From UHGV virus genome UHGV-0117955: DNA of 11,395 nt; one strand, written 5' to 3'. A program made the translations under genes and the position numbers. Shown here in pieces: positions 712-10,153 of this stretch. The notes below the pieces were generated by a model. That model did no database searches and was not told the DNA's origin. It saw nothing but the letters and a program-made list of their open reading frames with translations. The number at the start of each line of letters is the position of its first letter. Within the stretch, counting starts at the first letter, position 1. The stretch comes from a virus.

Positions 712-2178
712 ATGGCTACTTGGCAAGGAACAAATGGCGGATTGTTGGCTGGTATCGGTGGGGTCAACTCAAACGCTCCGAGCGTAAATGAGATCGGCAA
801 TACGCTTCAGCTTATCAGGCAGAACAATGATATTGAGCGCTCAGGCGCTAACAATGTTGGACTGACGGCCTTGCAAGGTCTTTCAGGTATTGCTGGTGTT
901 TTTCAGCAGGAAAAGCAGGCTCAGCGGCAGAAAGAATTTCAGCAGGCATACGCTAATGCTTATGCGTCTGGTGATCGCGGTGCTTTGCGTCAGTTGGCTA
1001 CTCAATATCCAGACCAGATTGAATCCGTTCGTAAAGGCATGGGATTCATTGATGAAGACCAGCGCAATTCTATCGGCACCTTAGCGGCTGGCGCACGCCT
1101 TGCGGCCTCGTCTCCAGAAGCAATGCAATCATGGCTGCAAAACAACGCCAAGGAACTGACTCGCGTCGGTGTTGACCCTAACAGCGTTGCTCAGATGTAT
1201 CAGCAGAACCCTTCAGGATTTGGTGAGTTTGTTGATCACCTTGGGATGGCTGCTCTTGGTCCGATTGATTACTTCAATGTTCAGGACAAGATGGCTGGTC
1301 GTGAAATTGACCGAGGCAGGCTGGCAGAGACAATCCGCAGCAATCAGGCCGGCGAAGCACTTCAGGCGAGAGGGCAGGATATTAGCCGAGCAAATGCGTT
1401 AACGTCAGCATATGCACCAACAGCCGCAATGCAGAATTACAATCAGTACGCGCAAATGTTAAAGGCAGATCCAGATGGTGCAGCGGCATTTGCGGCAGCG
1501 GCGGGAATTAATCCCAATGCTAAGAAATTACTTAAGGTTGAAACCAATCCTGATGGCTCGGTAACTAAGTATTACACCGATGGCAGCGAGGAAGCCGGAA
1601 AACTAAACCAACCTATATCTGGTGATGGCATTAAACCAATTAGCTTGCCACAAGCGCAAAGCATCATAGATAAGGCTAATGAGGGTTCCAAGAAGGCGGC
1701 GGGATTTGCTTTGCGATTAAAAGATTCAATGGACTCAATGAATCAGCTTAGTAAAAGCATTGACCCTAAGCGAGTTGCATTAATAAATCGCTCTCTTGGT
1801 GATGGGACTATTGCAAATTTAAGCCTATCACCAGCGGAGCAGCAATATATGGTAAATGCGAGAGACGCCTTGTATGCAATTTTGCGCCCAGAAACAGGTG
1901 CAGCAATTACTCTGCCAGAGATGCAGGAGTATTCCAAAATGTACCTGCCTCAGCCCGGTGATTCCAAGGCTGCTACTGAAACAAAAATGCGAAAAATGCA
2001 GGGCCAATATAACTCATTACGTGGTCAGTCTGGTCGCGTTTATGATGCTTTGGTGGTTTCAAGTGCTGCAAATAGTCAACAACAGAGCAATAGCCAACAA
2101 CCGACAAATACCCAACAGAAGCAGAGTCAATCCGGATCATATACCTCAAAATCAGGCATTCAATTTACGGTGGAATGA
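712..2178 (+). CDS. P22-type ejection protein, gp20-like
   Basis: ATG at 712 preceded by AAGGGG (701-706). 488 aa, Ala/Gln-rich, with a Q/S-rich low-complexity C-terminus. Its stop overlaps the next start as ATGA (2175-2178), indicating translational coupling. Order and size fit the P22 7-20-16 ejection-protein trio. Confidence 0.6.
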
Positions 2179-4007
2179 TGAAAGTAACTGCAAACGGTAA
2201 GACATTTACCTTCCCTGATGGTACGAGCACGGAAGATATTGGCACCGCCATTGATGAGTATTTTGCTGGTCAGGCTGTTCAGCAACAAACAGTTAATCAG
2301 GCCAATAATGCACCAACACAGGAAGAACCATCATTGATGCAACAAGCTGGCGATTGGCTCACTGGTGGTCAAAGTGCAGGGCAAATTGCAGAACAGGCTG
2401 GTCGTGGTCTGGTAAACATACCATTTGACGTATTGCAGGGTGGCGCAAGTCTGATTAATGCAATCAGTCAGGGGCTTGGTGGGCCAAAAGTATTGGATGA
2501 TGTCTATCGTCCAGTCGATCGACCGACAGACCCTTATGCGCAAGCTGGAGAAACAATTGGCGGGTATTTAGTTCCAGGAGTTGGAACGGCAGGAAGCATG
2601 GCTATTGGATCACTGGCAGAGGCCGCAAATCAGAAAGGCGATTTCGCACAAAATGCAGCTAAAAATGCCGGAGTTAACCTTGCCGCTCAGGGTGTTCTTT
2701 CCGCAGCAGCAAAGGGAATAGGGCGTGGAATTACTGCTGTTCGTGGCGAAATATCACCAGCAGATCAGCAATTGCTCAAGCGTGCCGCTGCGGCAGATGT
2801 ACCAGTTATGACATCGGATGTAGTTCCTCCAAAAACAAAACTTGGCAATCAACTGCAGGGTTACTCAGAAGGAGTCATAGCTGGTACTGGACCAATGAGA
2901 GCCGCACAGCAGGATGCCAGAACCAAGCTTGTTAATCGCTTCACCGAAAAATACGGCGACTACGATCCATCTGTAGTCGTTGATAGTCTAAAGTCAGGCG
3001 TTGCAAGGGAAAAATCGTTAGCCAAGTCAAAACTAAACAACCTGTCAGGAAGAATGGTTGGAAAGCCAGTTGATACAAGTGGCGCCATAAGAGCCATCGA
3101 CGGAGCAGTAAACGAACTTGGGAAACTTAAAGGTGTTTCTGACACCCAGACCATTTCTGCGCTTAATGATTATAAGAATGCCATTCAGGAGATAACAAAT
3201 GGAGATGATGCCTTTGAGTTACTTGATAAGCTGAGAACTCAGTTCCGCATTGACGTAAAAGGCGATCGCACAGTTCTGCCATCAATGTCGCAAACAATGA
3301 TCAACAGGGTCTACAACTCGCTAACCAATAGCCTTAGTAAATCTATAGCGAAAGGACTTAGCCCAAAAGATGCTTCAGCATGGAGAGCGGGAAAAGCTGA
3401 TTATGCAAAAATGGCAACACATGCAACTCAAACGCGCCTTAAAAACGTTCTAAACAAAGGAGATTTAACTCCCGAGGCTGTAAATACCATTGTGTATGGA
3501 CAATATGGGTCAGATATAGCTCGATTGTACGGGAAACTCGATCAAAAAGGTAAAGACATGCTAAGGGCGGCATATATCAGCAAAATAGCTGACAAGGTAG
3601 GTGACAGCCCTCAGAAAATGATGACCGAGCTTGGCAAGCTGCAAAAACAAGCAAATGGTCAGGTGTTTAAAACTGTATTTGGTGGGAAGAACGGAAAAGA
3701 GATAGAGGGGATGTTATCTATTCTCGATGCTACCAAAAGAGCATCTGAGGCTAATGTTGTGACGAAGACTGGCATGACACTCGCGCCTTTGGTAAGGGTT
3801 ATTGGTAACCTAAAAACCGGAGGCGCGCTATTGGCTGGGGAAACAGGGATTGGCCTTATGTCGAGGGTTTATGAAAGCCCTATGGCTAGGAATGCGCTCT
3901 TACGTCTGGCAAACACTAAAGCTGGAACGCCAGCTTATGAAAGAGCGCTGAATAACGCCGCAAATGCCATCAGACCAATACTTGCCAATGATGCAACTGA
4001 TCGCTAA
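2175..4007 (+). CDS. P22-type ejection protein, gp16-like
   Basis: ATGATG start at 2175 overlapping the upstream stop. 610 aa, against about 609 aa for P22 gp16. Last gene of the ejection-protein trio, directly before the immunity region as in P22. Stop TAA at 4005-4007. Confidence 0.65.
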
Positions 4008-4028
4008 GGGTTGATGTCATGGATGTTG

Positions 4029-4667
4029 TTAATTGCGAATGGAATCGCGGAACTCTTTACTTGATAGAAAAGGATCTGTTCTCCTTAACTCATCATAGTT
4101 TTTATTAAACTTTCTTGCTTCACCTGGGTATCTGTTGAACAAAACATTGCAGAAAAAAGAGAGCAATAACTCACATATGAATGCTAATACCCTGAAAAAT
4201 AAAGGTATAAAAAGAAGGGAAGGTTCATTGAAGTCTCTATTCCAAACAAAATAGACAATCATCCCGACATACCAAATTGATATCCCTATACTGATGATTG
4301 TTCCAACAGAGGTAACTACGACCCCGATTAAGTCGGACAGTCTGTTTGCCAGTAACTCATTTGAGTATCTTGCAATCATATACCGCCAACATTTTGCAAT
4401 ATCATCCTGATCTGTAGAGTCTTCTGGAATAGCTAGGCTTCTACATATTGAAGTAGCTCTTTTTTTCTCAACTCTTTTTGAGAGCCATCCATTAAAGAGA
4501 TACATCAACACCTGCGTTGCTATTCCTGCACCAAGTGATATCAAAGACATCCCAAAAAATCGCCATCCTGGAGATAGCGACTGGTACTGCCAAACAAAAA
4601 AAATTAAAAAACCCAATGAGCCTATGACATAGGCTGATGTATCGCTATATATATCTATTTTTTTCAT
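4029..4667 (-). CDS. Integral membrane protein (four predicted TM helices) in the sieA position; candidate superinfection-exclusion protein
   Basis: The track ORF 4029..4700 begins with GTG and has no Shine-Dalgarno sequence. The in-frame ATG at 4667 is preceded by AAGGAG (4677-4681 on the - strand) and is the preferred start, giving 212 aa. Four long hydrophobic segments (YVIGSLGFLIFFVWQY; FFGMSLISLGAGIATQVLMYLF; LIGVVVTSVGTIISIGISIWYVGMIVYFVW; LLFIPLFFRVLAFICELLLSFFCNVLF) separated by charged loops. Markedly AT-rich compared with the flanking structural genes. It lies directly downstream of, and on the same strand as, the Mnt-like gene, where P22 carries sieA. The functional call is positional only. 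Confidence 0.45.
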   Translation of the reverse strand: MKKIDIYSDTSAYVIGSLGFLIFFVWQYQSLSPGWRFFGMSLISLGAGIATQVLMYLFNGWLSKRVEKKRATSICRSLAIPEDSTDQDDIAKCWRYMIARYSNELLANRLSDLIGVVVTSVGTIISIGISIWYVGMIVYFVWNRDFNEPSLLFIPLFFRVLAFICELLLSFFCNVLFNRYPGEARKFNKNYDELRRTDPFLSSKEFRDSIRN

Positions 4668-4717
4668 TGAGTAGCCACTCCTTAGTTTTGAGCAGAACAC
4701 CGGATGATAATGTTTTG

Positions 4718-4969
4718 TTATGTGTCTTTTGGGATTCTATCCAGTAACTCGTTGGAAATTTTATCAAGTAAAGATTTTATTTGTTTAAGATCTAATGATT
4801 TGTCTACTGATGAGACGTCAGATGATAACGCATCCTCAAGAATTTGAACTATCTCTGAGTTCATAGATCGACCGTTTCGTTTAGCCCTTTCCGCAATAGC
4901 ACTACGCATGCCGTCAGGCATTCTAACCGTAAATCTTTCTATGAAATTTGATTCGTCTTTTTCTGACAT
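4718..4969 (-). CDS. Mnt-like ribbon-helix-helix repressor (copy 1)
   Basis: The translation contains FTVRMPDGMRSAIAERAKRNGRSMNSEIVQILEDALS, closely matching the N-terminal ribbon-helix-helix region of P22 Mnt/Arc (FNFRMP…ANGRSMNSELLQIVQDALS, recalled). The track ORF starts at 5017 with a hydrophobic leader that would overlap the promoter; the preferred start is the internal ATG at 4969, giving 83 aa (P22 Mnt is 83 aa). Stop TAA at 4718-4720. Confidence 0.7.
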   Translation of the reverse strand: MSEKDESNFIERFTVRMPDGMRSAIAERAKRNGRSMNSEIVQILEDALSSDVSSVDKSLDLKQIKSLLDKISNELLDRIPKDT

Positions 4970-5018
4970 TTTCTTATTCGCAAGGCATATGAGCAATAAA
5001 AAACACAGTAGCATCATA

Positions 5019-5079
5019 TTGACATTATGAGCAATGGCATCATAATGGTGTCATGACATCATGGTGATGTCATTATGAC
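5019..5079. promoter_or_regulatory. Divergent overlapping promoters with palindromic operator-like sites (Pant/Pmnt-like)
   Basis: Rightward promoter: -35 TTGACA (5019-5024), 16-bp spacer, -10 CATAAT (5041-5046). Candidate leftward promoter on the - strand: -35 TGACAC (5053-5048), 17-bp spacer, -10 CATAAT (5030-5025). Perfect 10-bp palindrome TGTCATGACA (5049-5058) at the predicted rightward transcript start. Perfect 11-bp palindrome GTCATtATGAC (5069-5079). Repeated TGACAT/ATGTCA half-sites at 5020, 5054 and 5067. The architecture mirrors the overlapping Pant/Pmnt and operators of P22 immI. Confidence 0.55.
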
Positions 5080-5089
5080 GGAGATATTG

Positions 5090-5266
5090 ATGATGAGCGA
5101 TGTTCTTTACAGTGGTCGTAAAAGTCAGAGTTTCCAGCTTCGTTTGCCAGCGCGAATGAAGGAGGAGATCAGACGCGTAGCTGAAATGGATGGAATTTCT
5201 ATCAACTCTGCGATTGTGCAGCGACTGGCTAAAAGCCTGAGAGAGGAAAGAGCTAATGCCCAGTAA
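5090..5266 (+). CDS. Arc-like ribbon-helix-helix repressor
   Basis: 58 aa from ATG 5090, with GGAG (5080-5083) 6 nt upstream; the track ORF start at 5075 has no Shine-Dalgarno sequence. The motif SFQLRLPARMKEEIRRVAEMDGISINSAIVQRLAKSL matches the Arc/Mnt fold (P22 Arc is 53 aa, with FNLRWP…NGRSVNSEIYQRV). It sits directly downstream of the TTGACA/CATAAT promoter. Confidence 0.7.
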   Translation: MMSDVLYSGRKSQSFQLRLPARMKEEIRRVAEMDGISINSAIVQRLAKSLREERANAQ

Positions 5267-5339
5267 AAATAGTGAAGCCCGGAAGTGCGCGAACACAAAC
5301 CGGGCCTCTATGTCAGTAACCGTACCCAAGGAAACTAAC

Positions 5340-5978
5340 ATGAATATTGTAGCAAAATCAGATTATAACTTCCAAGGATTCACTTTTAACCCTGTAACAG
5401 AGGGCGGGTCTATCTGGTTCACCTCCGCCGAACTAGCTAAGGCTCTCGGCTATAAAAAAACTGATGCCATCAGCCAAATTTATGCCCGTAATGCTGACGA
5501 ATTTTCCGACTCAATGTCATTGACCCTCAATATGAAGGTCAACGGAATAAACAATAGCTTACGTAACAAATCGGTCAGAGTTTACTCGCTCCGAGGCGCT
5601 CACTTGGTGGCGATGTTTGCTTCTACGCCCAAGGCCAAAGAGTTCCGCCGCTGGGTGCTGGATATTTTGGATCGGCAGGCAGAATGCTCACCGATTGCAA
5701 AACAGTTTACTGACGAAGAACTGGTTAATCTCTGCTACTTACAATTGTGGATGGAGAAGAGTCAACAAATGTGCAAACACATCTACCCAGGAATGAAGCA
5801 AATTGGTTCTGAGCTTTCAGGAAGGATTTACGATATTGCATATGAGACTCGCTACATGTCAGAAGAAACCAAGAAATCACTTCTTCGTGAAATGAAGAAT
5901 CTTGATACCAACAATTTTGTCGTAAAGAACGCTCAGCCAATGCTGGCAAAACTGCGCGGCGAGGAATGGATTCATTGA
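5340..5978 (+). CDS. Bro-N domain antirepressor-like protein
   Basis: ATG at 5340 preceded by AAGGAA (5327-5332). The N-terminus (FQGFTFNPVTEGGSIWFTSAELAKALGY) looks like a Bro-N/antirepressor N-terminal domain. An alternative upstream ATG at 5256 overlaps the arc stop and is considered less likely. Stop TGA at 5976-5978. Confidence 0.6.
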   Translation: MNIVAKSDYNFQGFTFNPVTEGGSIWFTSAELAKALGYKKTDAISQIYARNADEFSDSMSLTLNMKVNGINNSLRNKSVRVYSLRGAHLVAMFASTPKAKEFRRWVLDILDRQAECSPIAKQFTDEELVNLCYLQLWMEKSQQMCKHIYPGMKQIGSELSGRIYDIAYETRYMSEETKKSLLREMKNLDTNNFVVKNAQPMLAKLRGEEWIH

Positions 5979-5982
5979 TTGG

Positions 5983-6028
5983 TGCGCCGGACGGCGCAAA
6001 AAGAAAACCGCCAGTGTGCTGCTGGCGG
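5983..6028. other. Two GC-rich intercistronic stem-loops
   Basis: Hairpin 1: TGCGCC-ggac-GGCGCA (5983-5998). Hairpin 2: CCGCCAG-tgtgctg-CTGGCGG (6008-6028), a 7-bp stem with a 7-nt loop. An A-rich run (5998-6007) lies between them, so on the - strand hairpin 2 is followed by TTTTCTTTT and resembles an intrinsic terminator facing leftward. Confidence 0.5.
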
Positions 6029-6066
6029 CCTATGTCACACCCTTACTACCACATAAGGAATGCCTA

Positions 6067-6795
6067 ATGACTTTTAAGAATGTAGCAAACATCGGATCCG
6101 TTGTCACGGATAAAACCATTGATAGCCAGTACCTGTTAGAGATGGTCAATCATGCTCGTAGACATTGCGGGGAAAAAGAAGTCCGCAATAACGACTTTAT
6201 TGCACGCATTAAGGATGAACTTGAAGGTGAGCACTACGAAATTTTCGTAGTTCAAAAATCAAACAAGACAACTTCTGAAAAAGTTGTTATGTCAATTAAG
6301 CAAGCCCTTCGAGTGGCTGCTCGTGAATCTAAAGCTGTTCGCCGCTCACTTGTAGACCAACTTGAAAGTATGCAAGAAGCGCACATTAAAAGCGGTAAAT
6401 CGTCGAGTGGACTTGTTGAGTATCGCCAGGCGCGAACATTGAAAATGACGGTTGAAGCTGTTACCAATCTGTTCGATTTGATGCCAAATCTTGCGCCGGA
6501 AGCAAAGCAGACTGCGGCAGCAAGCATAATCAACCCGATCGTTGGTTTTAATGCAATACCTCTTCCAGCAATAGAAGAGCATTACTACTCAGCAGGGGAG
6601 GTTGCAGAGCAGCTTGGAGTAACGGCCAACAAGATTGGTCGCATTGCTAACGCAAACAACCTCAAAACTGAGCAGTACGGTAAGTTCTTCCTGGATAAAT
6701 CTGCGCATTCCAGCAAACAGGTGGAAGCATTCCGCTACAATGCGGAAGGTGTTAAAGCACTACAACACCTGATTCATGGGAGTAATGTTGCATAA
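6067..6795 (+). CDS. Antirepressor-like protein (possible AntA-like N-terminus and KilA-C/ANT-like C-terminus)
   Basis: ATG at 6067 preceded by AAGGAA (6055-6060); the track ORF begins at a GTG at 6016. 242 aa. The C-terminal segment YYSAGEVAEQLGVTANKIGRIANANNL resembles the helix-turn-helix-like core of phage KilA-C/ANT domains, and the N-terminal part (…NDFIARIKDEL…) loosely resembles AntA-type domains. Domain calls are from memory and need an HMM search. The gene sits where ant sits in P22 immI. Confidence 0.4.
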   Translation: MTFKNVANIGSVVTDKTIDSQYLLEMVNHARRHCGEKEVRNNDFIARIKDELEGEHYEIFVVQKSNKTTSEKVVMSIKQALRVAARESKAVRRSLVDQLESMQEAHIKSGKSSSGLVEYRQARTLKMTVEAVTNLFDLMPNLAPEAKQTAAASIINPIVGFNAIPLPAIEEHYYSAGEVAEQLGVTANKIGRIANANNLKTEQYGKFFLDKSAHSSKQVEAFRYNAEGVKALQHLIHGSNVA

Positions 6796-7023: not shown

Positions 7024-7047
7024 AACCCGCTTAATCGCGGGTTTTTT
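7024..7047. terminator. Intrinsic terminator between convergent genes
   Basis: AACCCGC-ttaatc-GCGGGTT stem-loop (7024-7043) followed by TTTTTT on the + strand. It lies between the stop of the 73-aa ORF (7016) and the convergent mnt-like gene, whose last codons and stop (7031-7033) are encoded within the stem. Confidence 0.7.
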
Positions 7048-7288
7048 CTTTTCTAAGGATATCAGCCACAACTTCTTTTACTCGTTCCGAGATTAATGAG
7101 GCCAGCCTCTCTTCTTCATCGCGATGCCCGCTTACAGGTGATGGTTTGGAGAGTGATTCTTCCATCGTAGCCACAATTTCGGAATTGATAGACCTGTTAT
7201 TCATTTTTGCACGTTGCTTAATCTTAGCGTGCAACTCGTGCGTAAGCCTCAAGTGGAACTGCGCCTCATCGTATTTGCTGTACATCAT
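7031..7288 (-). CDS. mnt: Mnt-like ribbon-helix-helix repressor (copy 2; the closer match to P22 Mnt)
   Basis: The translation MMYSKYDEAQFHLRLTHELHAKIKQRAKMNNRSINSEIVATMEESLSKPSPVSGHRDEEERLASL… aligns along its length with P22 Mnt as recalled (…FNFRMP…ANGRSMNSELLQIVQDALSKPSPVTGYRNDAERLA…). 85 aa from ATG 7288, with GAGG 5 nt upstream on the - strand. The track ORF (7031..7684) extends 132 codons further upstream across the tailspike start and is treated as a spurious extension. Confidence 0.8.
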   Translation of the reverse strand: MMYSKYDEAQFHLRLTHELHAKIKQRAKMNNRSINSEIVATMEESLSKPSPVSGHRDEEERLASLISERVKEVVADILRKEKTRD

Positions 7289-7420
7289 CAATGCCTCACC
7301 AAATGGGTGGAATGGCATCGTAAAACCTACTGTACAAATCAACAATCGTACCATTTCGGTATGCAATAAACGCCAACCGTAGCCATGCTGCGGCGATTCC
7401 TTGTATCTGGAGCAAATTAA

Positions 7421-10153
7421 ATGACAGACATTACAGCTAATGTTGTAGTGAGTATGCCTTCGCAACTCTTCACTATGGCTCGTTCTTTTAAAGCCGTAGC
7501 TAATGGCAAAATTTATATCGGTAAAATTGACACTGACCCTGTAAATCCTGAAAACCAGATTCAGGTTTATGTGGAGAACGAAGACGGTTCTCACGTTCCT
7601 GTTGCACAGCCAATCGTCATTAATGCTGCTGGATATCCGGTATATAACGGGCAGATTGCCAAATTCGTAACTGTGCAAGGCCATTCTATGGCTGTATATG
7701 ATGCGTATGGCACGCAGCAGTTCTATTTCCCTAATGTGCTGAAGTATGACCCGGATCAGTTACGGCAGCAATTAGAAGATCCTGATGGTGCTAAAAAATA
7801 CCCTGAATTACAGATTGCACGATGGCGGGATGATAAAGACGTTCGCGGGTGGGGGGCGGATGACTCTGGGAATAGAGATTCAACACAGGCTTTTCTTGAC
7901 GCCGCATCTAGCGCAGGAAAGAGTGGTTTGGTTCATGTGCCTTCTGGTGAGTTTATAGTTGATGCATCGAAAATAGATATTTCACGCTTCTCCGGTGATG
8001 GTGTTCTAATCAGTAATGGTGTTCGCATTTCTGTTAATCCGCCGATGCAAAGTTTCTCCATTGGACAAAGAAAACTTGCGACCCTGAATTTTGGTGATGA
8101 TATCAATGCGCCAACTATATATGCGAATGCACAAAATGCATTGCAGGGAATAGCTTGTGTAAGGCATGAAGGTATTGAGAAGGTTTTTATCACTCAACAG
8201 GTTGGAGGTTCTAACTGGGGAAAGGACACCCTCACAAGGATCAGTGAGTGGCACTATACAAGCGATGGTTCAACTCTTTATGTTGTGACATTTACAGAGC
8301 CATTGCCTCTTGGTCACGGTTCAGATCTTTCTGCCACAATAGAGAACGGTGAACTATATCTGTTTACAACAACAATTGCTGAGACTGGTTCCTCTCTAGG
8401 AGGGAAGGGGTATTCAAAGACAAAATGGAAAGGGGCATCAACATCTGCTGAAGATATAACTCATTACCGAGTATTTGGTGAGCCGGGTGATAATAATCTG
8501 ATTAACCTTGCGCAGCGGGCAAGTATTTGTGTATCTAATGATGGGCGATATGTCATATTAATTGCGACATCAAACGCTGGGACTGGCCGCTTTTTATACG
8601 TATATGATCGCAAAGAAGTGGAATCTTCTTCTAACCCAATGAAAGTTAGACCGATTAATGGTCCTGTTCCACTTGTCCGTGGTAAAGGTCAGTATGGTGC
8701 AACACTTCAGGGTATTACATCAGATAGCAGATATATTTACACAATTTGGGGTGGCGTTCCTGCAAGATGCGTAAGGACAGTACAGATTTATGATATGGGT
8801 GGTACGCTAATACGTTCATTTCCTGTATCACTTGCCGCATCACTTTATACAGAGACTCAGTTAAATGGTTCTGACTCTAAAATCGGAGTTCCGGTTAGCT
8901 TTGAGCCTGAAGGGCTGGCAATAAGAGGTGATGAACTTGTCTGTGGTGCTATGGATGTATGGAAAAGCGCAGGGGATGTTGTAAGCCATCGTGGTAAAAA
9001 TTGGGTAAGTATTGTTACTGGTGATAACAAGGGAAATCTTCCGACAAACAGGTCTTATTGGTTAAAAACATCGCTTGCAGCGACAAGTGGTGAATGGGAT
9101 TCAGGCGCAACATATAAATCAGGTGATTATACTCGCAGAAATAAGCATCTGTTTGGAATAGCAAACCTGTCTGATATTCTTGGCAACCATCCAGTGCATG
9201 GTGCAGAATCCGATCCGTATACCGGAACCGCGCATCAATATTATGCTGGAACTGATATCGCCTTTAACCGTGAGCACGGTTCATTTACTATTGCGATATT
9301 TGACGAAGCCATTGGAGAGTATACCAAATCCCTCGAGTTGAATTATGGAAATAACCTTAACCTGTTTGATACAGATTACGGACATGACAATAATTCATGG
9401 GTAAGTACGAAAGCAGTATTCGACTCAAACTTTCGAGGTATGCAGTTCCGTTCTAAAGATGGGAATACTGCGGGTGGTGCTTATATTGATATCCATGCTG
9501 CTGATTGTCCATCTGCGGCTGGTGAGTTGATACTTGCCTCTACAGATGGAGGTGTCGTCAGACTTAAGCAGGGGAATGTAACAGTATTTTCTGCGACTAA
9601 AGATACTACATCGACATGGGCGACGACGACATTAAGGCCAACAACTGATAACCAGGTATCACTTGGAAGGTCCGTTAACCGCTTTTCTCAGGTCTACGCA
9701 GGGACTGCAACTATAAATACATCTGATGCAACAGAGAAAACGGAAGTCAGAACTCTTTCCGATAAAGAGCAGGCGGTTGGGTTAGCTCTTGTTGATGAAA
9801 TTGGTTTTTATCAATGGCTTGATAGTGTAAAAAATAAGGGAGCTGATGCCAGACTTCATGCCGGACTTACGGTGCAACGGGCAATGGAAATATTCAGAGA
9901 GAATGGACTTGATCCATTTAAATACGGAGCGATCTGCTATGACAGATGGGATGCATATGCAGATACAGATCCTGCTATTTATGATGATAAAGGTAACCTT
10001 GTTCGTGAGGCTATAACTATTACGCATGAAGCAGGAGAACGCTATGCATTCAGAAATGATGAATTACAGTATCTAATGATTGCTGCATTAGGTATACGTC
10101 AGAAAAATATTATAAAGAGGATTGAAGAACTGGAAAATAAGCTTGCAAATTAA
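7421..10153 (+). CDS. Tailspike protein: P22-type N-terminal head-binding domain fused to a divergent receptor-binding/depolymerase body
   Basis: GGAG at 7409-7412, ATG at 7421. The first ~115 aa ([11 protein letters not shown]…[39 protein letters not shown]…[13 protein letters not shown]…NVLKYDPDQ) are near-identical in pattern to the N-terminus of P22 gp9 as recalled. The rest (about 795 aa, against 667 aa total in P22) is unlike the P22 endorhamnosidase body. The last ~142 aa resemble a C-terminal intramolecular chaperone module: a TSD motif at Ser768 (nt 9722-9724), then [20 protein letters not shown] and a terminal coiled-coil-like [14 protein letters not shown]. Confidence 0.85.

What the first reader, a model, noticed from the sequence alone, without database searches (positions are those of the whole stretch)
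5019..5079. Back-to-back promoters overlapped by two perfect palindromes
A consensus -35 TTGACA with a CATAAT -10 faces the arc-like gene, and a mirror-image TGACAC/CATAAT pair faces the mnt-like gene. The palindromes TGTCATGACA (5049-5058) and GTCATtATGAC (5069-5079), with further TGACAT half-sites, cover the predicted start region. This is the arrangement expected for mutually exclusive Arc/Mnt-type switch control, but the operator sequences differ from the P22 operators as I recall them, implying a distinct specificity.
Basis: seen in the sequence. Interest (0 to 1): 0.5.

Follow-up and report, generated by a model that had tools for sequence, protein, structure and literature searches.

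The report
Prophage antirepressor promoter with repressor boxes

Summary
The motifs are at the stated coordinates. TTGACA-16-CATAAT (5019-5046) is the only match of 11/12 or better to the sigma-70 consensus in the window, and TTGACA is kept in nearly all of 97 related loci. The two quoted palindromes have 5-bp arms, which is the shuffle average, and the 13 other lineages with the same Mnt-like recognition strand lack them.

Those lineages keep rCATCA-N3-TGATGy instead. In the window this is a perfect 21-bp palindrome (5053-5073). Its centre lies 44 bp from the -35, against 43 bp for P22 Omnt. They also keep two direct boxes: TAGCATCATA (5009-5018) and ATGGCATCATA (5034-5044, over the -10).

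The box core follows the Mnt-like beta-strand. Thr14 goes with GCATCA, and Asn goes with GCACCA. The Arc-like strand (SFQLRLP) is the same across six box classes, so its operator stays unassigned.

An extended -10 (TGnTAnnnT, 5013->5005) is invariant in 39/39 distinct sequences.

A sar-like antisense RNA is also present.

Verdict: a real immI-type switch and a new specificity variant of a known kind. The operators were mis-delimited. All binding is inferred.

The parts
4718..4969 (-). Mnt-like RHH repressor gene, 83 aa. Recognition strand is E-R12-F-T14-V-R16-M-P. A short helical C-terminus follows.
   Evidence: ORF list. Pfam Arc PF03869, E=1.4e-17. Aligns to solved Mnt 1mnt with R12/T14/R16 matching H6/N8/R10. 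A homologous short C-terminus occurs in L065/L067, so the gene looks intact despite the PGAP pseudogene flag on the identical locus.
4619..4635 (-). Terminator-like hairpin downstream of the Mnt-like gene.
   Evidence: Consensus scan only. P22 has an annotated mnt terminator in the equivalent place.
5005..5013 (-). Best-conserved candidate leftward (Pmnt-like) promoter: extended -10 TGc-TACTGT. It overlaps box A.
   Evidence: TGnTAnnnT at this offset (-14 from the -35) in 39/39 distinct sequences of the RFTV, RFNI and RFNV classes. T1, A2, T6 and TG are invariant while positions 3-5 vary. The same scan recovers the annotated P22 Pmnt position (offset +5) in the P22-like class, which serves as a positive control. 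The start site is not mapped.
5009..5018 (+). Box A, TAGCATCATA, abutting the -35.
   Evidence: Invariant in all 15 distinct sequences of the class, while the flanks vary. Matches TRRCATCAW.
5019..5046 (+). Pant-like sigma-70 promoter: TTGACA, 16 nt, CATAAT. Predicted start about 5053.
   Evidence: 11/12, the only such match in the window. TTGACA is kept in all but one distinct related sequence across all classes. Same layout as the annotated P22 Pant. The start site is inferred.
5023..5047 (.). Inverted repeat CATTATGA-N9-TCATAATG, centred 16 bp from the -35, at the position of P22 Oarc (15 bp). Weak candidate Arc-like site.
   Evidence: I4. Only the 5-6 bp arms CATTA/TAATG are kept in most class members, and they are absent in other classes that carry the same Arc-like protein. 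The assignment is speculative.
5034..5044 (+). Box B, ATGGCATCATA, overlapping the -10 hexamer.
   Evidence: CAATGrCATCATAATG is invariant in the class. It forms a direct repeat with box A at 26-bp spacing (D1).
5053..5073 (.). Boxes C and D: a perfect 21-bp palindrome, ATGACATCA-tgg-TGATGTCAT, over about +1 to +21. Proposed main Mnt-like operator.
   Evidence: I3. 9-bp arms, P=0.012. The core rCATCA-N3-TGATGy is kept in 14 of 15 class sequences (one has TGGTG). The centre is 44 bp from the -35, against 43 bp for P22 Omnt.
5049..5058 (.). A lineage-specific by-product of a 1-bp insertion next to box C.
   Evidence: Most relatives read TGTCAGGCAT here, which is not palindromic. A 5-bp arm equals the shuffle mean.
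5069..5079 (.). It consists of the end of box D plus the junction with the arc module.
   Evidence: Not conserved in the class. The recombination breakpoint with loci of the other box class lies at about 5070.
5093..5266 (+). Arc-like RHH gene, 57 aa. Recognition strand is S13-F-Q15-L-R17-L-P.
   Evidence: Pfam Arc, E=8e-12. Aligns to Arc 1arq/1par with S13/Q15/R17 matching Q9/N11/R13. PGAP annotation of the identical locus.
5264..5339 (-). Predicted sar-like antisense RNA across the ant ribosome-binding site. Terminator hairpin at 5275-5308.
   Evidence: The hairpin aligns with the annotated P22 sar terminator and has 4 pairs with compensatory changes among 11 loci. Fold z = -3.9. No Rfam match. 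The RNA ends are inferred.
5346..5375 (-). Psar-like promoter: TTGGAA, 18 nt, TGc-TACAAT.
   Evidence: The -10 sits at the same place relative to the ant ATG as the annotated P22 sar promoter.
5340..5978 (+). Antirepressor (ant) gene.
   Evidence: Pfam Bro-N and P22_AR_C. PGAP annotation.

Best explanation
The 123-bp gap between the divergent Mnt-like and Arc-like genes is the control region of a P22 immI-type antirepressor module in an E. coli P22-like prophage.

A strong rightward sigma-70 promoter (TTGACA 5019, CATAAT 5041) drives arc-like and ant.

It is covered by four copies of one box, T-r-r-CATCA-w:
- Box A (5009-5018) abuts the -35 and overlaps the best-conserved leftward extended -10 (TGcTACTGT, 5013->5005).
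- Box B (5034-5044) overlaps the -10.
- Boxes C and D form a 21-bp palindrome (5053-5073) over about +1 to +21.

Proposed mechanism (inferred): in a lysogen the Mnt-like repressor, as a dimer of dimers, binds C/D and B. This blocks RNA polymerase at the ant promoter, so no antirepressor is made. Occupancy of box A autoregulates mnt.

Specificity is set by the Mnt-like beta-strand. Thr14, the equivalent of P22 Mnt Asn8, goes with GCATCA. Relatives with Asn go with GCACCA.

The Arc-like protein and a sar-like antisense RNA add negative feedback on ant, as in P22, but the Arc-like binding site is not identified.

For: Module identity:
- Gene order and Pfam domains fit immI.
- The P22 annotation provides the comparison.
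- The literature describes this slot between genes 16 and 9 as the variable 'ant moron' (PMC2629481).

Promoter:
- It is the only 11/12 match in the window.
- TTGACA with a 16-17 nt spacer is kept across 54 distinct sequences from 97 loci.

Boxes:
- Blocks TAGCATCATA+TTGACAT, CAATGrCATCATAATG and rCATCA-N3-TGATGy are conserved in 15 distinct sequences of the class, which include genome hits from Klebsiella, Yersinia, Hafnia and Lonsdalea. The neighbouring bases vary.
- The 9-bp-arm palindrome has P=0.012.
- TRRCATCAW is clustered.
- The palindrome centre is 44 bp from the -35, against 43 bp for P22 Omnt.

Co-variation:
- CATCA occurs 3-6 times per promoter in the RFTV class and 0-2 times in every other class. 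Each of the other classes has its own repeated motif.
- Natural domain swaps exist. The same Mnt C-terminal domain is joined to three different N-terminal strands (L011, L050, L018), and the boxes follow the N-terminus each time.
- On the other side, the arc module is exchanged at about 5070.

Recognition principle:
- The RHH beta-strand is the principal DNA-specificity determinant (PMC3413123, citing Knight & Sauer 1989).
- Residue equivalence comes from the 1mnt alignment.
Against: - No binding, footprint or transcript data exist. Every protein-DNA assignment rests on co-variation and position.
- The boxes and the Mnt N-terminus are physically adjacent. Part of the co-variation could therefore be linkage. 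The breakpoints on both sides argue against this but do not exclude it.
- Box spacings are not whole helical turns (A-B 26 bp; B-C 19 bp in the window and 18 bp in most relatives). Box orientations also differ from the Asn class, so the binding geometry is unclear.
- If one protein binds all four boxes, the Arc-like repressor is left without a site. That departs from the P22 paradigm.
- Three different leftward -10 candidates exist (5029->5024, 5018->5013, 5010->5005).
- TAGCA in box A could be conserved as part of the box rather than as a promoter element.
Confidence: 0.68

Rival explanations
1. TGTCATGACA (5049-5058) and GTCATtATGAC (5069-5079) are the Arc-type and Mnt-type operators. A mirror-image leftward promoter (TGACAC / CATAAT) overlaps the rightward one, exactly as in P22.
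For: - The strings exist.
- The minus-strand CATAAT 5029->5024 sits at the same offset (+5) as the annotated P22 Pmnt -10.
- Palindrome 1 lies where the other box class has its palindrome TTGGTTCTAGAACCAA.
Against: - Neither palindrome is present in the 13 other lineages of the same class.
- 5-bp arms equal the shuffle mean.
- TGACAC matches the -35 consensus at 1/6. The in-register ATGACA needs a 19-nt spacer.
- The offset +5 hexamer passes in fewer than 60% of class sequences, with A2 lost in the TTGACATTACC-type lineages.
Confidence: 0.08
2. A P22-like division of labour. The Arc-like protein binds the upstream boxes A and B (or the CATTATGA-N9-TCATAATG repeat in the spacer). The Mnt-like protein binds only the C/D palindrome.
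For: - P22 Oarc lies in the -35/-10 spacer and Omnt lies downstream.
- The window has a palindrome centred 16 bp from the -35, against 15 bp for Oarc.
- CAT-N8-ATG in the spacer recurs in many loci that carry the SFQLRLP Arc-like strand.
Against: - Boxes A and B share the core of C and D and change together with them between classes. The Arc-like recognition strand stays identical across six Mnt classes, and the whole protein differs at only two residues between the window and 55989/MS1657.
- Changes in the Arc-like strand within one box class (L088, L086, L010, L016) come with no change in the spacer.
- The spacer palindrome is not kept in the other classes.
Confidence: 0.17
3. The 21-bp palindrome acts as an RNA hairpin at the 5' end of the arc-ant mRNA, affecting stability or translation, rather than as a protein-binding site.
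For: - If transcription starts near 5053, the palindrome is the first 21 nt of the mRNA and folds as a 9-bp stem.
- Some relatives have G/T at the sixth arm position, which RNA would tolerate as a G-U pair.
Against: - The fold energy is ordinary (z = -0.22; 73 of 200 shuffles fold as well).
- The same core occurs in boxes A and B, which are upstream of the start and not palindromic.
- The position matches P22 Omnt.
Confidence: 0.04
4. The repeats are chance features, or duplication remnants, of an AT-rich intergenic region with no regulatory role.
For: The short palindromes taken alone are at chance level.
Against: - The boxes are conserved across genera while the flanks diverge.
- Repeats are class-specific in every class.
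- The clustering statistics argue against chance.
Confidence: 0.03

Closest known systems
Phage P22 immI region (Pant/Pmnt, Oarc, Omnt, arc-ant operon, sar RNA)
   Same: - A divergent mnt faces arc-ant in the late operon, between the DNA-transfer genes and the tailspike.
- Pant has a perfect TTGACA.
- A palindromic operator is centred about 43-44 bp from the -35.
- A sar-type antisense hairpin and promoter lie at the arc-ant junction.
   Different: - The operator sequences are unrelated (GGTCCACGGTGGACC in P22, ACATCA-N3-TGATGT here).
- One box type is present four times here. P22 has two different operators.
- No co-varying Arc operator is found.
- The best-conserved leftward -10 lies 14 bp upstream of the -35, instead of inside the Pant spacer.
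- Ant is a Bro-N/P22_AR_C protein of 212 aa, not the 300-aa P22 Ant.
Sister 'DRFN' class of the same module (E. coli 55989 and MS1657 prophages, Salmonella phage vB_SosS_Oslo, Klebsiella phage KP12)
   Same: - In the E. coli loci (55989, MS1657) the Arc-like protein is nearly identical (two residues differ) and arc DNA is 92-93% identical from about 5070 on; Oslo and KP12 share the recognition strand at 84-86% protein identity.
- The -35 and spacer length are the same.
- Box arrays occupy the same three places.
   Different: - The Mnt-like strand has Asn where the window has Thr.
- The boxes are TAGmACCA instead of TrrCATCA.
- The main palindrome, TTGGTTCTAGAACCAA, is centred at about +1 with the opposite half-site polarity.
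Ribbon-helix-helix operator arrays in general (MetJ, CopG, ParG, omega, AmrZ)
   Same: Several short core boxes are bound cooperatively by dimers, with specificity carried by positions 2, 4 and 6 of an 8-residue strand (PMC3413123). AmrZ is the best solved-structure match of the Mnt-like protein.
   Different: Those systems are metabolic, plasmid or virulence regulators. The irregular spacing and mixed box orientations seen here are not the regular arrays typical of ParG or omega.

Membership tests
P22-type immI (ant moron) module | Sits in the late operon between the ejection/DNA-transfer genes and the tailspike gene. | tested here: met
   ORFs 712-4007 and tailspike 7421-10153. PGAP names on the identical E. 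coli locus. PMC2629481 describes this slot.
P22-type immI (ant moron) module | A divergent Mnt-type RHH gene faces an Arc-type RHH gene followed by an antirepressor gene. | tested here: met
   Pfam Arc for both RHH genes; Bro-N plus P22_AR_C for ant. Best solved-structure relatives include 1mnt and 1arq/1par.
P22-type immI (ant moron) module | Strong rightward promoter with a palindromic Mnt operator over the start region. | tested here: met
   By sequence, position and co-variation only. Binding was not tested.
P22-type immI (ant moron) module | A separate Arc operator between -35 and -10 that matches the Arc protein's specificity. | tested here: inconclusive
   A spacer palindrome exists in the window (I4). 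No spacer element follows the Arc-like strand across classes.
P22-type immI (ant moron) module | The leftward mnt promoter almost fully overlaps Pant, with its -10 abutting the Pant -35 (offset +5). | tested here: inconclusive
   The window has CATAAT there, but fewer than 60% of class lineages keep a -10-like hexamer. An extended -10 at offset -14 is invariant.
P22-type immI (ant moron) module | sar antisense RNA across the ant ribosome-binding site. | tested here: met
   Conserved terminator hairpin with 4 compensatory pairs, aligned with the annotated P22 sar, plus a promoter at the same place. Not detected by Rfam. The transcript has not been observed.
P22-type immI (ant moron) module | Operators identical or similar to P22 Oarc and Omnt. 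| tested here: not met
   P22 sequences share nothing with 5009-5073 beyond TTGACAT.
Sigma-70 promoter | -35 and -10 hexamers with a 16-18 nt spacer, and a mapped start site. | tested here: inconclusive
   The hexamers and spacing are met at 11/12. The start site cannot be tested with these tools.
Ribbon-helix-helix repressor/operator pair | Operator core changes together with strand positions 2, 4 and 6 of the cognate protein. | tested here: met
   Met for the Mnt-like protein: R-T-R goes with GCATCA; R-N-R and K-N-R go with CACCA. Not met for the Arc-like protein.

The most novel reading that the evidence does not exclude
Two linked readings are not excluded.

(a) The widespread SFQLRLP Arc-like repressor is independent of operator class. 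It may work with at least six different Mnt/operator modules because it reads something common to all of these promoters, for example the -35-proximal CATT-N6-AATG. Alternatively, it may not act through a dedicated operator at all. Either would be a different logic from P22 Arc.

(b) The Thr14/Asn difference in the Mnt-like strand, matched by a single T/C difference in the box core (GCATCA against GCACCA), is a natural one-residue, one-base-pair specificity switch in a ribbon-helix-helix protein.
Probability: 0.25. Interest if true: 0.55.

Novelty: new variant of a known kind. Interest (0 to 1): 0.38.

Why it matters
immI-type antirepressor modules decide whether a P22-like prophage stays silent, and they mediate cross-talk between co-resident prophages.

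This analysis gives three things:
- A testable operator set and recognition rule for a module class found in at least 24 complete E. coli genomes and in several other enterobacterial genera.
- Evidence that the exchangeable unit is the Mnt N-terminal domain together with its boxes.
- An open question: what does the conserved Arc-like partner bind?

The family, with six natural strand/box classes on one scaffold, is also a ready-made data set for ribbon-helix-helix recognition rules and for orthogonal repressor/promoter pairs. It does not reveal a new kind of system.

Tried and rejected
- A megablast of 4000-6100 against phage records found only the ant part, so no annotated phage carries this mnt/operator block. 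E. coli genomes and a distant search were needed.
- An Rfam scan of the whole window at E<=1 found nothing, not even for the sar-like region.
- I tried to assign an Arc-like operator by sorting 54 distinct promoters by Arc-like strand class. No element follows that strand. Only a weak CAT-N8-ATG / AATGG pattern is shared by modules carrying SFQLRLP, and it persists when the Arc-like strand differs.
- I tested the RNA-hairpin reading of the palindrome. Its stability is ordinary.
- I looked for an operator upstream of the second Mnt-like gene (7270-7430). No convincing palindrome was found.
- I rejected the PGAP pseudogene call for the Mnt-like gene, because a homologous 82-aa form exists in another lineage.
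- Two minus-strand -10 candidates are kept only as alternatives: TATGAT 5018->5013 and CATAAT 5029->5024.
- The Kapi1 lysogen RNA-seq paper (PMC12922286) concerns a different immI locus and gives no start sites.

Full report
**What is at the coordinates**

The window reads ...CAGTAGCATCATA TTGACA TTATGAGCAATGGCAT CATAAT GGTGTCATGACATCATGGTGATGTCATTATGACGGAG....
- TTGACA at 5019-5024.
- CATAAT at 5041-5046, with a 16-nt spacer.
- TGTCATGACA at 5049-5058.
- GTCATTATGAC at 5069-5079.
- Minus-strand CATAAT at 5029->5024.

The segment lies in the 123-bp gap between two divergent ribbon-helix-helix (RHH) genes. One is Mnt-like (4969->4718, 83 aa). The other is Arc-like (5093-5266, 57 aa). Both match Pfam Arc PF03869. 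Downstream of the Arc-like gene is an antirepressor gene with Bro-N and P22_AR_C domains (5340-5978). DNA-transfer genes lie upstream, and a tailspike gene lies downstream at 7421-10153.

The 601 bp around the site are at least 99.5% identical in 24 complete E. coli genomes, where they sit in a P22-like prophage next to intS. The slot between genes 16 and 9 is the known, highly variable 'ant moron' or immI region of P22-like phages (PMC2629481; PMC8022706).

**Is it more than chance?**

The rightward promoter is. It is the only match of 11/12 or better to the sigma-70 consensus on either strand of the 11.4-kb window, against 0.28 expected.

The two palindromes are not, taken individually.
- In 2000 dinucleotide-preserving shuffles of the intergenic region, the longest perfect arm averages 5.07 bp. 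Theirs are 5 bp.
- Four palindromes have arms of 5 bp or more, against 1.3 +/- 1.3 expected (P=0.07).

- A perfect 21-bp palindrome, ATGACATCA-tgg-TGATGTCAT, at 5053-5073. Its 9-bp arms have P=0.012 in the shuffles.
- An 8-bp inverted repeat, CATTATGA/TCATAATG, at 5023-5030 and 5040-5047.
- A direct repeat of GCATCATA at 5011 and 5037.

The in-register ATGACA (5054->5049) leaves a 19-nt spacer, and the scan did not report it.

**Comparative evidence**

No annotated phage carries this mnt/operator block at high identity. I therefore collected 97 loci that encode a relative of the Arc-like protein:
- 13 from bacterial genomes.
- 80 from IMG/VR viral contigs.
- 4 from annotated phage and E. coli genome records.

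In almost all of them a divergent Mnt-like gene lies 70-125 bp upstream. Anchoring on the -35 gives 54 distinct promoter sequences.
- TTGACA is present in all but one of them (that one has TTGACT).
- The spacer is 16-17 nt.

This is strong support for a real promoter equivalent to P22 Pant.

**What is conserved in the window's own class**

Fifteen distinct sequences share the window's Mnt-like strand (ERFTVRMP/LP/FP). They include genome hits from Klebsiella, Yersinia, Hafnia and Lonsdalea. These blocks are conserved (the first two invariant; one sequence has TGGTG in the third), while neighbouring bases vary:
- TAGCATCATA + TTGACAT.
- CAATGrCATCATAATG.
- rCATCA-N3-TGATGy.

The window lineage has a 1-bp insertion there. 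Palindrome 2 is not conserved at all.

So the functional units are four copies of a box, T-r-r-CATCA-w:
- Box A at 5009-5018, abutting the -35.
- Box B at 5034-5044, overlapping the -10.
- Boxes C and D, inverted, at 5053-5073.

TRRCATCAW has 5 matches in the whole window against 1.5 expected, and 3 of them fall within 5009-5062. Box D is a fourth copy ending in C.

**Which protein the boxes belong to**

The loci fall into classes by the Mnt-like recognition strand, and each class has its own repeated motif at the same three places in the promoter:

| Mnt-like strand | Repeated motif |
|---|---|
| ERFTV (window class) | CATCA, 3-6 copies per promoter; 0-2 in every other class |
| DRFN(I/V) | TAGmACCA, including TTGGTTCTAGAACCAA |
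| DKFN | AATGGTGTTAA |
| DKFM | GTCACnGTGAC, twice |
| APFG | CACnGTG, three times |
| PVFN (P22-like) | CCCCACGGTGGGG |

Aligning the window protein to solved Mnt (1mnt) puts R12, T14 and R16 at Mnt H6, N8 and R10. Positions 2, 4 and 6 of the RHH strand are the established base-contacting positions (PMC3413123, citing Knight & Sauer 1989 and Raumann et al. 1994/1995).

The window class and the DRFN class differ at the central position (Thr against Asn). Their box A sequences differ essentially by one base, TAGCATCA against TAGCACCA. The K-N-R class also uses CACCA.

Recombination breakpoints flank this unit on both sides:
- The same Mnt C-terminal domain is fused to three different N-terminal strands (L011, L050, L018). 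The boxes follow the N-terminus each time.
- E. coli 55989/MS1657-type prophages share 92-93% identical arc DNA from about 5070 onward, but have an unrelated mnt/operator block upstream.

The Arc-like recognition strand (S13-F-Q15-L-R17, matching Arc Q9/N11/R13) is identical in loci of six Mnt classes. Changes of that strand within a class (L088, L086, L010, L016) come with no change in the spacer.

I conclude two things. All four boxes most likely belong to the Mnt-like repressor. The Arc-like operator cannot be identified from these data. Part of the co-variation could still reflect linkage, and no binding was tested.

**Comparison with P22 itself**

The annotated P22 record gives these positions:

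| Element | P22 | Distance from the first base of the -35 |
|---|---|---|
| Pant | TTGACA-17-TATATT | 0 |
| Oarc | ATGATAGAAGCACTCTACTAT | centre at 15 bp |
| Omnt | GGTCCACGGTGGACC | centre at 43 bp |
| Pmnt -10 | TATCAT | starts at +5, abutting the Pant -35 |

In the window the C/D palindrome is centred at 44 bp, so it is the positional equivalent of Omnt. The CATTATGA-N9-TCATAATG repeat is centred at 16 bp, the Oarc position. Only its 5-6 bp arms are kept within the class, and it is absent from other classes that carry the same Arc-like protein.

A scan of minus-strand -10-like hexamers across classes gave these results:
- The +5 position is recovered in the P22-like class (3/3) and the APFG class (5/6). 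This is a positive control for the method.
- The +5 position passes in fewer than 60% of the window's class.
- An extended -10, TGnTAnnnT at offset -14 (window 5013->5005, TGcTACTGT), is present in 39/39 distinct sequences of the three largest classes. TG, T1, A2 and T6 are invariant and positions 3-5 vary.

This extended -10 is my preferred Pmnt candidate. It overlaps box A, which would give autoregulation. TATGAT 5018->5013 and CATAAT 5029->5024 remain alternatives. The caveat is that TAGCA is also part of the box consensus.

**Proposed mechanism (inferred)**
- In the lysogen, Mnt-like protein made from the leftward promoter binds C/D and B. It covers the -10 through about +21 of the ant promoter and prevents antirepressor synthesis.
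- At higher concentration it occupies box A and limits its own promoter.
- On infection or derepression the strong promoter fires. Arc-like protein and the antisense RNA then curb ant.

The RNA-hairpin alternative for the palindrome is weak. The 5' leader folds no better than shuffles (z = -0.22).

**Other findings**

A sar-like antisense RNA is present.
- The arc-ant spacer hairpin (5275-5308) aligns with the annotated P22 sar terminator.
- It shows 4 pairs with compensatory changes among 11 loci.
- The minus-strand promoter TTGGAA-18-TGcTACAAT (5375->5346) sits where P22 Psar does.
- Rfam finds nothing.

The Mnt-like gene is flagged as a pseudogene by PGAP in the identical locus. However, a homologous 82-aa form exists elsewhere, and P22 Mnt is also 83 aa. 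I therefore treat the gene as intact.

**Verdict**

This is a P22 immI-type switch with a new operator specificity and a somewhat different layout: one box type used four times, a shifted leftward promoter, and no identifiable Arc operator. It is a new variant of a known kind. Interest is moderate-to-low, and rests mainly on the natural residue/base co-variation and the unexplained portability of the Arc-like protein.

Noticed in passing
window 5264-5375 (- strand): A sar-like antisense RNA lies opposite the ant ribosome-binding site. The terminator hairpin (5275-5308) is conserved with 4 compensatory pairs and aligns with the annotated P22 sar. The promoter is TTGGAA-18-TGcTACAAT at 5375->5346. 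Rfam gives no match.
   Followed up: partly
window 7031-7318 (- strand): A second Mnt-like RHH gene lies just upstream of the tailspike. Its strand is AQFHLRLT and its C-terminus resembles P22 Mnt (SKPSPV...). No clear operator palindrome lies upstream (7270-7430), although ATGGCATCG at about 7313-7321 resembles box B. In the otherwise identical E. coli AR_0058 locus (L001), an HNH endonuclease gene is inserted between this gene and the tailspike.
   Followed up: partly
window 4718-4969; L001 6118-6270: PGAP annotates the Mnt-like gene in the identical E. coli locus as a C-terminally incomplete pseudogene. The 83-aa ORF is intact, and its short helical C-terminus has homologues (82 aa) in L065 and L067. 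The flag probably reflects the mosaic C-termini of this family.
   Followed up: yes
L011, L050, L018 (Mnt-like genes upstream of position 1501): Mnt-like proteins are mosaics. One C-terminal domain (...EEFDAVNEKVDWLIDKLMEKID...KKPT) is joined to three different recognition strands (ERFT, DRFN, PVFN). Many unrelated C-termini end in KKPT.
   Followed up: partly
L016 (Pectobacterium polonicum), about 1330-1520: The Arc-like and Mnt-like proteins of this locus carry the same strand core (KFMLR). They may therefore compete for the same GTCACnGTGAC boxes.
   Followed up: no
L057, L089, L007, L097 promoters (about 60-64 bp upstream of position 1501): Loci of the APFG class keep TTGACATGATAGA. This is identical to the P22 -35 plus the left half of P22 Oarc, although their Arc-like strand is N-F/I-M/L-L-R rather than P22's Q-F-N-L-R.
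   Followed up: no
window 4029-4700 (- strand): A 223-aa ORF with hydrophobic stretches and no Pfam match occupies the position that sieA holds in P22. PGAP calls only a 122-aa hypothetical protein there.
   Followed up: no
NZ_CP146561.1 and NZ_CP146567.1 (hits H30, H31): The locus also occurs on 39.9-kb E. coli replicons filed as plasmids. Their size matches a whole P22-like phage genome, so they may be circular phage DNA or a phage-plasmid.
   Followed up: no
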